Origin: a virus
Taxonomy: Duplodnaviria > Heunggongvirae > Uroviricota > Caudoviricetes
Reading direction: 5' to 3' (one strand)
Length of the DNA stretch: 26,705 bases
Virus record (IMG/VR): IMGVR_UViG_2872185964_000003
The notes under the pieces are model-generated. The model did no database searches and was not told the origin of the DNA. It worked only from the letters and a program-made list of their open reading frames with translations. The translations under genes and the position numbers were made by a program. Below are positions 1 through 330 of this stretch, piece by piece. Each line of letters begins with the position of its first letter. Position 1 is the stretch's first letter.

Positions 1-141
1 TTACTGCTTACACTGTAAGAACGCCGCAAACTCCGCTCCCCAGAAGCTCATCCGTATTTCGCACAGCGAACCGTGCAGCATCCAGATGATGAGGATTGCC
101 GTCACGCAGAACGTGATGGCCGTAAGCGATTTTTGCGACAT
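1..141 (-). CDS. Hok/Gef-family type I toxin-like small membrane protein (46 aa)
   Basis: Found by eye on the minus strand, below the ORF-track length cutoff: ATG at 141..139, TAA at 3..1. Translation MSQKSLTAITFCVTAILIIWMLHGSLCEIRMSFWGAEFAAFLQCKQ has one N-terminal TM helix followed by SLCEIR...AAFL, as in Hok family members. AAGGAG lies 7-8 nt upstream. The window starts exactly at its stop codon. Confidence 0.6.
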   Translation of the reverse strand: MSQKSLTAITFCVTAILIIWMLHGSLCEIRMSFWGAEFAAFLQCKQ

Positions 142-330
142 AGCGCTTGCTCCTTTTTCGGGGAGGCGCTAACCTATCACTTGCTTAGGGTAGACGGTTA
201 GGGCCTCGGTTAAACAAAAATGTTTTCCGGGGCCTTTCCACATCTGGCTTTCAGGTATTCCTCCGACCATCAGCCGAAAGGCACCCGCGCGTAATCTATC
301 GCTTTTTTGTTACTCCGGCAATTCTGCTCG
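142..330 (-). promoter_or_regulatory. Putative hok mRNA leader / antisense control region; possible prophage attR also expected here
   Basis: A 190-nt untranslated stretch lies between the ogr stop (331) and the hok start. The SD of hok sits inside a GC-rich inverted repeat (GCGCCTCC...GGAGCAAGCGC), as in hok-type translational control. No sok promoter was positively identified. Confidence 0.3.

What the first reader, a model, noticed from the sequence alone, without database searches (positions are those of the whole stretch)
1..330. Unannotated Hok/Gef-type toxin gene next to the ogr end of the prophage
A 46-aa ORF, too short for the ORF track, has Hok-like architecture and motif (SLCEIR...AAFL), and its SD lies in a GC-rich inverted repeat. 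It may be a chromosomal hok locus at the integration site or a prophage-associated type I toxin-antitoxin. The ogr::IS2 insertion lies only about 260 bp upstream.
Basis: partly seen in the sequence, partly recalled or inferred. Interest (0 to 1): 0.55.

Follow-up and report, generated by a model that had tools for sequence, protein, structure and literature searches.

The report
Known phage-borne Hok toxin gene
The short gene at the left edge of the window is a real Hok-family membrane toxin with its antisense-RNA control region, carried as the last gene of a P2-like (P88-type) prophage, but it is already annotated in thousands of genomes and the same peptide has already been tested for toxicity, so it is ordinary.

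Summary
Window 141..1 (- strand) encodes a 46-aa peptide that passes Pfam HOK_GEF (29.9 bits, cutoff 22) and PHROG 251 (E 1.3e-22). Its leader (286..128) matches Rfam RF01794, the hok/sok leader model (E 2.8e-8, below the gathering score). The same cassette sits next to ogr inside P88-type Peduoviridae genomes, and it is the last gene before the prophage end.

It is not new. RefSeq annotates the identical protein (WP_000078916.1, "Hok/Gef family protein"). Related loci occur in 1751 of 5426 complete E. coli genomes. The identical peptide (72_1621) was among 45 homologues tested for toxicity in a 2025/26 preprint and is not among the three reported non-toxic.

The window cuts off the 3' UTR. 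In a 99.5% identical copy, the 3' fbi box pairs with the mRNA 5' end. Removing the 3' end refolds the 5' end onto an internal box, which is the classical hok switch.

Two weak points remain. No mok reading frame is conserved among 13 homologues, and the Sok RNA is only predicted. This copy also carries two private leader changes in a prophage crippled by an IS2 insertion in ogr. Interest is low.

The parts
1..141 (-). hok coding sequence: 46 codons plus TAA. It has a polar N-terminus, a hydrophobic stretch L6-L22, and a C-terminal part with L26-C27-E28, E37 and C44.
   Evidence: Pfam HOK_GEF 29.9 bits > 22; phrog_251 E 1.3e-22; identical protein named Hok/Gef family protein. The conserved positions M1, C16, T18, L30, C31, E32 and E41 of the published logo map to M1, C12, T14, L26, C27, E28 and E37.
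142..171 (-). Hairpin that sequesters the hok Shine-Dalgarno. GGAG at 153..150 pairs with CUCC at 165..162, flanked by GCGC/GCGC.
   Evidence: The sequence and the MFE folds of the full-length mRNA. The block TTAGCGCC...GGAG.CAAG is nearly invariant in 13 homologues.
128..286 (-). hok mRNA leader, from the predicted 5' end GGGUGCC to just past the start codon.
   Evidence: Rfam RF01794 matches full-length (model 1-157) at 44.8 bits, E 2.8e-8, below the gathering score of 59. Ten of 11 sister copies score 40-51 bits and one scores 34.
272..286 (-). tac-like 5' end (GGGUGCCUUUCGGCU). It pairs either with the 3' fbi box, which is outside the window, or with the internal ucb-like box.
229..246 (-). 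ucb-like box (CAGAUGUGGAAAGGCCCC), the alternative partner of the 5' end once the 3' end is removed.
   Evidence: RNAalifold consensus pairs 9-18 with 59-67. Truncated-mRNA folds show it in 9 of 13 homologues and in the window sequence.
293..321 (-). Putative hok promoter: TTGCCG (321..316), 17 nt spacer, TAGATT (298..293), with +1 about 286. It lies 10 nt after the ogr stop codon (333..331).
   Evidence: Read from the sequence. The -10 keeps a TAnAnT pattern in nearly all copies despite unrelated upstream contexts. It matches only 8 of 12 positions, so the scan did not call it. Inferred.
147..175 (+). Putative sok promoter: TTGCTC (147..152), 17 nt spacer, TAACCT (170..175). It overlaps the hok SD-to-start spacer on the opposite strand.
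   Evidence: Read from the sequence. TTG of the -35 and TAnnnT of the -10 are kept in 13 of 13 aligned copies, and three other copies read TTGACT. Not called by the scan. Inferred.
182..240 (+). Predicted Sok antisense RNA of about 60 nt: a single-stranded 5' tail, then hairpin 200..236, then UUUCC. It is fully complementary to the hok leader but not to the hok SD.
   Evidence: Fold gives -23.9 kcal/mol, z -3.1, 0 of 200 shuffles as stable. The position is analogous to sokW, which has 71 nt complementary to the hokW 5' UTR. No expression data.
169..243 (-). 24-codon upstream ORF in the hok frame. It ends at UAG 171..169, at the foot of the SD hairpin. It is the only mok-like candidate in this copy and is not conserved.
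   Evidence: In homologues the same AUG opens ORFs of 0 to 61 codons in varying frames.
249..260 (-). Two changes private to this copy. G->A at 249 hits a position invariant in 13 homologues. One G is lost from the run at 260.
   Evidence: diff against L001; invariant GAAGGCC; best of 5426 genomes is 99.5% identical. The predicted folds are retained.
331..400 (-). 3' fragment of the ogr/Delta-like gene, up to the IS2 target duplication.
   Evidence: intact 86-aa gene in L001.
401..1727 (+). IS2 copy of 1327 bp inserted in ogr, with target duplication ACGGG. Its first reading frame is frameshifted.
   Evidence: annotated IS3-like element IS2 family transposase in matching genomes.
1728..1923 (-). 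5' fragment of the ogr/Delta-like gene.
   Evidence: Pfam Ogr_Delta E 4.2e-14.

Best explanation
This is the hok/sok-type type I toxin-antitoxin cassette that P88-type P2-like temperate phages (Xuanwuvirus, Peduoviridae) carry as a moron between ogr and the attachment site.

Shown by computation:
- The - strand encodes a 46-aa Hok/Gef peptide.
- In a 99.5% identical copy, the roughly 400-nt mRNA folds so that its 5' end pairs with a box near the 3' end (fbi). The hok ribosome-binding site is then locked in a hairpin.
- Deleting the 3' end in silico moves the 5' end onto an internal box and rearranges the leader.

Inferred from the R1 hok/sok paradigm:
- The full-length mRNA is stable and inert.
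- Slow 3' trimming activates it.
- A short, unstable antisense Sok RNA, made from the + strand at about 182..240, then pairs with the leader, blocks expression and triggers decay.
- When Sok is no longer made, the toxin is produced and depolarises the inner membrane.

The likely biological role in the phage is inferred only. It could retain the prophage (addiction), or help lysis or exclude other phages.

The R1-type coupling through an overlapping mok frame is not recognisable here, so the step from Sok binding to hok repression is the least certain.
For: - Protein family: Pfam HOK_GEF above its cutoff. PHROG 251 'MokW-like host killing', E 1.3e-22. Identical protein named Hok/Gef in RefSeq and UniRef on at least 1000 contigs.
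- Selection: dN/dS is 0.00-0.55 in the 11 pairs computed, and the ORF length is kept in all 13 aligned homologues.
- Leader RNA: Rfam RF01794 full-length match, E 2.8e-8, repeated in 11 sister copies.
- Fold switch: the full mRNA of L001 has MFE -173 kcal/mol, z -7.6, with 5'-3' pairing. The 5' end pairs with fbi in 10 of 13 homologues, and with the internal box after truncation in 9 of 13. The window leader joined to the L001 3' UTR behaves the same. tac-fbi cells are 87% paired, against 36-51% when the partner is slid. 15 of 92 consensus pairs show compensatory changes.
- Phage-borne: the cassette is inside P88-type phage genomes next to ogr. The same cassette, including its terminator, is found at ihfA, at serS and in the phage form, and homology breaks just after the terminator.
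- Toxicity: the identical peptide 72_1621 is in the tested set of bioRxiv 10.1101/2025.08.07.668861. Only three other sequences were reported non-toxic.
- Precedent: hokW-sokW of prophage Sp5 is an experimentally shown prophage type I TA (PMC8621323).
Against: - No mok-like frame is conserved in start, frame or length among 13 homologues, not even among copies more than 93% identical.
- The Sok RNA and both promoters are only predicted. Neither promoter reaches the consensus scan's threshold.
- The Rfam match is below the gathering score (44.8 < 59).
- NCBIfam HokA and Hok models are far below their cutoffs.
- tac-fbi shows conservation, not covariation.
- The fbi box and terminator are not in the window.
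- This copy has two private leader changes, one at an invariant position, and sits in a prophage with ogr disrupted by IS2.
- The toxicity of 72_1621 is taken from the text of a preprint. The figure itself could not be seen.
Confidence: 0.9

Rival explanations
1. The locus is a silenced relic. The Hok ORF is intact, but this copy no longer works as a toxin-antitoxin module. Like the chromosomal hok loci of E. coli K-12, it is just carried along in a decaying prophage.
For: - ogr, the late-gene activator, is split by IS2.
- The neighbouring 1039-aa cargo gene is broken by two 1-nt deletions.
- The hok leader has a private G->A at a position invariant in 13 homologues, and a private 1-nt deletion.
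- Chromosomal hokA, hokB and hokC could not mediate post-segregational killing, according to the literature summarised.
- Tandem relic hok copies exist next to serS.
Against: - The coding sequence is identical to the commonest allele, and the SD, hairpin, tac, ucb and predicted sok promoter are intact.
- The predicted fold switch is unchanged by the two private changes.
- All four 1-nt gaps over 5.3 kb against the nearest relative may be sequencing errors. The two inside the cargo gene, the only ones located, fall in G runs.
Confidence: 0.15
2. It is a resident chromosomal hok locus that merely happens to lie at the phage integration site, and is not part of the prophage.
For: In prophage form it is the outermost gene, about 300 bp from ihfA. 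hok loci are common on chromosomes.
Against: - The same cassette is internal to phage genome records, including the induced phage P88 (PMC5285337).
- It travels with ogr to a second site, serS.
- Sequence shared between the phage and prophage forms extends through the hok terminator and then diverges.
Confidence: 0.03
3. It is a chance short ORF with a fortuitous motif.
For: Forty ORFs of at least 20 aa occur in the first 2.5 kb, so short ORFs are common.
Against: Pfam, PHROG and Rfam hits. Purifying selection. Presence in 1751 of 5426 genomes with the annotation Hok/Gef.
Confidence: 0.01

Closest known systems
Hok peptide 72_1621 (60%-identity cluster 72) of Escalera-Maurer et al., bioRxiv 10.1101/2025.08.07.668861; RefSeq WP_000078916.1
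   Same: The amino-acid sequence is identical over all 46 residues. The coding DNA differs at one synonymous base (CTG against TTG). It belongs to a 'high abundance cluster' and was cloned (plasmid LRP137) and tested in an arabinose-induced drop assay.
   Different: Nothing at the protein level. That study tested only the coding sequence behind a fixed SD. It did not analyse the leader, Sok, Mok or the P2-like phage context.
hok/sok/mok (parB) of plasmid R1, the archetype type I toxin-antitoxin
   Same: A small membrane toxin of the same Pfam family. A long structured leader recognised by the same Rfam model. 5'-3' (tac-fbi) closure, an alternative tac-ucb pairing after 3' shortening, an SD hairpin, and a predicted antisense RNA gene whose promoter overlaps the hok start region.
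   Different: The toxin is 46 aa instead of 52. The Rfam score is below the gathering threshold. No conserved overlapping mok frame is found. The carrier is a temperate phage, not a plasmid. The details of the R1 locus are recalled from established literature and were not aligned here.
hokW-sokW of Stx2 prophage Sp5, E. coli O157:H7 Sakai (PMC8621323)
   Same: A prophage-borne hok/sok-type module. The antisense RNA is complementary to the toxin 5' UTR. It has an experimentally shown TA function and a role in phage-induced lysis.
   Different: HokW is 51 aa with a HokC/D-like C-terminus (...TEVAVFVDYESEK, from primer YO-560). It belongs to a different cluster and sits in a lambdoid phage, not a P2-like one. 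Stx2a phages also carry a separate 46-aa locus about 83% identical in DNA to the one studied here.
HokA of E. coli K-12 (NCBIfam NF007290)
   Same: It is the best-scoring named Hok subfamily. Both have the two hard-coded cysteines, the second in a C-terminal ...AAFLxCK... motif (HokA sequence recalled from memory, not aligned here).
   Different: The score is 34 bits against a cutoff of 89, so it is not a HokA equivalog. HokA is in cluster 93 and this peptide in cluster 72.

Membership tests
Hok/Gef toxin protein family (Pfam PF01848) | Matches the family HMM above the curated gathering score | tested here: met
   29.9 bits against a cutoff of 22, E 4.1e-7, residues 7-44 on profile 5-42 of 42. 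PHROG 251, E 1.3e-22.
Hok/Gef toxin protein family (Pfam PF01848) | Peptide of about 50 aa with one N-terminal hydrophobic helix and the conserved residues M1, C16, T18, L30, C31, E32 and E41 of the published logo | tested here: met
   46 aa. L6-L22 is hydrophobic. M1, C12, T14, L26, C27, E28 and E37 have the same spacing as the logo positions, and C44 corresponds to logo position 48 (sequence, logo).
Hok/Gef toxin protein family (Pfam PF01848) | Toxic to E. coli when overexpressed | not testable with these tools
   From the literature only. [quoted passage not shown] Figure S4 could not be seen.
[quoted passage not shown] | Leader RNA homologous to the family covariance model | tested here: inconclusive
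   RF01794 full-length match, E 2.8e-8, but 44.8 bits is below the gathering score of 59. All 11 sister copies scanned also fall below it, at 34-51 bits.
[quoted passage not shown] | Fold-back inhibition: the mRNA 5' end (tac) pairs with a box near the 3' end (fbi) | tested here: met
   fbi lies outside the window. In the 99.5% identical L001, GGGUGCCUU pairs with AAGGCACCC in the MFE. The same holds in 10 of 13 homologues and for the window leader joined to the L001 3' UTR. 87% of cells are paired, against 36-51% when slid.
[quoted passage not shown] | Alternative tac-ucb pairing and leader rearrangement once the 3' end is removed | tested here: met
   Truncated folds put nt 1-14 on nt 47-59 in 9 of 13 homologues and in the window sequence. 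The RNAalifold consensus chooses this helix.
[quoted passage not shown] | Cis-encoded antisense Sok RNA with its own promoter, complementary to the leader | tested here: inconclusive
   TTGCTC-17-TAACCT on the + strand, with TTG and TAnnnT kept in 13 of 13 copies. The predicted 65-nt transcript folds into a tail plus hairpin, z -3.1. The consensus scan does not call the promoter. There are no expression data.
[quoted passage not shown] | mok: a reading frame that starts in the Sok target region, overlaps hok, and couples hok translation to its own | tested here: not met
   In the window the only candidate (243..169, 24 codons) stops 27 nt before hok. Across 13 homologues the upstream AUG opens ORFs of 0 to 61 codons in different frames, and no other start is conserved. 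The preprint authors also state that Mok prediction is not trivial. I therefore file the protein under Hok/Gef and call the locus hok/sok-like, not a full hok/mok/sok member.
HokA equivalog (NCBIfam NF007290) | Score above the curated equivalog cutoff | tested here: not met
   34 bits against a cutoff of 89. The generic Hok subfamily NF007279 gives 21.6 against 73.
HokW of prophage Sp5 | 51-aa peptide with a HokC/D-like C-terminus | tested here: not met
   This peptide is 46 aa and ends ...AAFLQCKQ. HokW ends ...TEVAVFVDYESEK.

The most novel reading that the evidence does not exclude
The 46-aa Hok cluster carried by P88-type phages (and by some lambdoid phages, ICEs and IncI1 plasmids) may work without any Mok leader peptide. 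Sok would then control hok by a route other than the textbook mok coupling, for example by forcing decay or by holding the leader in the SD-closed fold. Its fixed place as the last gene before the attachment site may make it a retention or lysis-timing device for P2-like prophages. That device could persist as tandem relics after the phage is lost.
Probability: 0.2. Interest if true: 0.35.

Novelty: already known. Interest (0 to 1): 0.1.

Why it matters
It matters little beyond housekeeping. It shows that an ORF track with a length floor hides a real toxin gene that is widespread and already annotated in public records. It also explains why the ogr-proximal end of this prophage may be hard to clone or delete. 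If the module is active, it could help keep even this crippled prophage (ogr::IS2) in the chromosome. The one open scientific point is how hok is repressed in a Hok cluster that lacks a recognisable mok frame.

Tried and rejected
I used BLAST against annotated collections instead.
- The sigma-70 and terminator scan of the locus found the hok terminator and the 3' hairpin, but neither the hok nor the sok promoter at its threshold of 9 of 12. Both promoters are therefore hand-read and marked as inferred.
- I looked for a mok frame in all three frames of 13-16 homologues and found none conserved. A 3-codon GUG mini-ORF ending at the same UAG occurs in 10 of 13 copies, but it has no SD, and I did not adopt it.
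- A covariation test of tac-fbi showed that pairing is kept but gave no signal above shuffles, because the helix is almost invariant. It therefore supports conservation only.
- I considered that HokW of Sp5 might be the same peptide with a longer N-terminus. I rejected this because of its different C-terminus.
- I considered the chromosomal-locus reading and rejected it.
- No complete E. coli genome in the collection holds the first 2.6 kb of the window intact, so the source strain was not identified.
- Pfam, PADLOC and PHROG searches of the neighbouring AT-rich cargo gave nothing.

Full report
**What is in the sequence**

On the - strand an ORF runs from the ATG at window 141..139 to the TAA at 3..1. 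It encodes MSQKSLTAITFCVTAILIIWMLHGSLCEIRMSFWGAEFAAFLQCKQ, 46 aa. GGAG (153..150) lies 8 nt before the ATG. It is paired with CUCC (165..162) inside a GC-rich hairpin.

IS2 occupies 401..1727, with a 5-bp duplication ACGGG on each side. It splits an Ogr/Delta zinc-finger gene. Its near end is 260 bp from the hok ATG.

The window begins exactly at the hok stop codon, so the 3' untranslated part of the locus is missing from it.

**Is it more than chance**

Short ORFs are frequent here: 40 of at least 20 aa in 2.5 kb. This one has independent support:
- It passes Pfam HOK_GEF (29.9 bits, cutoff 22, E 4.1e-7).
- It matches PHROG 251, 'MokW-like host killing', at E 1.3e-22.
- The exact sequence is on at least 1000 public contigs under the names 'Hok/Gef family protein' and 'protein HokA'.
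- Across 13 diverged copies the ORF keeps 45-46 codons. dN/dS against the nearest relative is 0.00-0.55 in the 11 pairs computed.
- All seven residues reported as conserved in more than 80% of 1264 Hok peptides are present with the right spacing (against the sequence).

**Where it belongs**

Megablast of window 1..399 finds the segment in 1545 of 5426 complete E. coli genomes. A more sensitive search with the full locus finds it in 1751. The match is always annotated 'Hok/Gef family protein', and in the P2-like context it sits next to 'ogr/Delta-like zinc finger family protein'.

The same ogr-hok pair lies inside phage genome records of the genus Xuanwuvirus (Peduoviridae): P88, P88_4B11, Chuche, 500465-2 and Shae_phiSM, at 94-97% identity. 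P88 is a phage that was induced from E. coli K88 (PMC5285337).

In prophage form the pair is the outermost part of the element. It is found next to ihfA in two strains and next to serS in another.

Sequence shared by the phage form and the ihfA and serS prophage forms runs through the hok terminator and then diverges. The cassette is therefore phage cargo, the last gene before the attachment site, and not a resident chromosomal locus.

More distant copies (74-84% DNA identity, also 45-46 aa) sit in several other mobile elements:
- lambdoid prophages, next to lom or between tail genes;
- an element with conjugal-transfer genes;
- an element with com and a DNA methyltransferase;
- IncI1 plasmids;
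- an Stx-type phage.

**The RNA part**

The leader on the hok strand (286..128) matches Rfam RF01794 over the whole model (E 2.8e-8, 44.8 bits), below the gathering score of 59. This family is named sok, but its model runs in the hok-sense direction and ends at the hok AUG. Eleven sister copies give 34-51 bits. This Hok cluster is thus a consistent but divergent relative of the Rfam seed.

To see the missing 3' end I used L001 (E. coli VG38-53E1). It is 99.5% identical over window 1..399 and has no IS2. Its 398-nt transcript folds to -173 kcal/mol (z -7.6). The first 15 nt, GGGUGCCUUUCGGCU, pair with AGGUCGAUAAGGCACCC just upstream of an intrinsic terminator.

I folded 13 homologues:
- The 5' end pairs with this 3' box in 10 of 13.
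- After the 3' end was removed in silico, the 5' end moved to an internal box (GGAAAGGCCCC, window 246..229) in 9 of 13.

RNAalifold chooses that internal helix as the consensus. It reports compensatory changes in 15 of 92 pairs.

The tac-fbi helix is 87% paired, against 36-51% when the partner is slid. It varies too little to show covariation.

This is the fold-back inhibition and refolding design known for the hok family. The mechanism is taken from established literature on R1; the folds were computed here.

**Sok**

On the + strand, TTGCTC (147..152), 17 nt and TAACCT (170..175) form a weak promoter-like site overlapping the hok SD-to-start spacer. TTG and TAnnnT are kept in all 13 aligned copies, and three other copies read TTGACT.

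A transcript from about 182 would have a free 5' tail and a strong hairpin (200..236) followed by UUUCC (-23.9 kcal/mol, z -3.1). It would be complementary to the leader but not to the hok SD. This resembles sokW, which has 71 nt complementary to the hokW 5' UTR.

The consensus scan did not call this promoter or the hok promoter (TTGCCG-17-TAGATT, 321..293). Both are inferences.

**Mok**

In R1, Sok acts through an overlapping mok frame. Here the only candidate is a 24-codon ORF (243..169) that stops 27 nt before hok. In homologues the same AUG opens ORFs of 0, 1, 8, 15, 19, 24, 28 or 61 codons in different frames, even among copies more than 93% identical. That AUG lies in the ucb-like box, which explains why it is conserved.

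I therefore score the mok criterion as not met. I file the protein as Hok/Gef and the locus as hok/sok-like. The authors of the recent Hok survey likewise say that Mok prediction is not trivial and left it out.

**State of this copy**

Compared with its five nearest relatives, the window differs at two positions. Both are in the leader hairpin between the tac-like and ucb-like boxes. One is G->A at 249, in a GAAGGCC block invariant in 13 homologues. The other is the loss of one G at 260. The predicted full-length and truncated folds are unchanged.

Other features of the region also look damaged:
- The neighbouring 1039-aa gene is broken by two 1-nt deletions in G runs.
- There are four 1-nt gaps in the 5.3 kb compared.
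- IS2 is 1327 bp (the usual length is 1331 bp, from memory), and its first reading frame is shifted.

This pattern suggests either homopolymer sequencing errors or decay of a prophage that has already lost ogr.

**What is known already**

RefSeq protein WP_000078916.1 is this peptide.

A 2025/26 preprint, bioRxiv 10.1101/2025.08.07.668861, catalogued 32,532 hok loci. It found hok genes enriched in prophages and tested 45 homologues. Its Table S2, 'All experimentally tested Hok sequences', lists 72_1621 with exactly this peptide (plasmid LRP137, high-abundance cluster 72). The text states that 42 of 45 were toxic and names 19_179, 60_1482 and 69_1540 as the exceptions.

A prophage hok/sok module with a demonstrated role, hokW-sokW of Sp5, has been published (PMC8621323). 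HokW is a different peptide, 51 aa with a HokC/D-like C-terminus.

NCBIfam places this peptide nearest HokA but far below the equivalog cutoff.

**Verdict**

The chromosomal-or-prophage alternative resolves to prophage-borne. The finding is an already known and already annotated gene.

The residual interest is small. It lies in the absence of a recognisable mok frame in this Hok cluster, and in the fixed att-proximal position in P2-like phages, which has not been studied.

Noticed in passing
window 2059..5176 (- strand); L016 1036..4155: An AT-rich (31-35% GC) cargo segment lies between ogr and the gpD tail gene. In E. coli VG38-53E1 it is one 1039-aa CDS annotated 'MFS transporter', yet it has no Pfam, PADLOC or PHROG hit at all. 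In the window it is split into ORFs of 137, 786 and 107 aa by two 1-nt deletions in G runs. It is an orphan gene at a moron position of a P2-like phage, and its public name looks unsupported.
   Followed up: partly
window 401..1727: The IS2 copy inserted in ogr is 1327 bp. Its first reading frame (insC-like, from 494) is frameshifted after ...GVAAS. Some other genomes (e.g. STEC384, 96% identity over 1..1966 in one piece) seem to carry IS2 at the same place in ogr.
   Followed up: partly
window about 260; two sites inside the cargo gene 2059..5176; one further site within 1728..7000 not located: All small indels against the nearest relative are single bases. There are four over 5.3 kb, and the two inside the cargo gene, the only ones located, fall in G runs. 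The hok leader has a further one. This looks like homopolymer sequencing error in the source assembly, which would make the apparent pseudogenes artefacts.
   Followed up: partly
L015 565..1935 (pSTEC1012_1, next to serS): Three tandem hok cassettes about 470 bp apart lie next to serS, the site where a P88-type prophage end (ogr-hok) is found in another strain (L014). They look like relics left by successive integrations. The 1.2-Mb 'plasmid' record is probably a chromosome fragment.
   Followed up: no
L002 about 2880..2930 (phage P88_4B11): In this phage record the hok 3' region diverges from all other copies immediately after the fbi box, so the usual hok terminator is missing. This may mark a different attachment or recombination point.
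   Followed up: no
L001 2639..2783 and L005 2309..2465: An Rfam STnc540 sRNA match (41.3 bits, above the gathering score of 38, in L001) lies just downstream of ihfA, between ihfA and the prophage end.
   Followed up: no
window 24645..25535 (- strand): A second IS3-family transposase ORF (rve, HTH_21 domains) lies near the right end of the window, so the prophage carries at least two insertion sequences.
   Followed up: no
L017 1500..1640 and one search hits H38-H50: Stx2a-converting phages carry a 46-aa hok cassette about 83% identical in DNA to this one. It is unannotated in most of those records. It is distinct from the published 51-aa hokW of the Stx2 prophage Sp5.
   Followed up: partly
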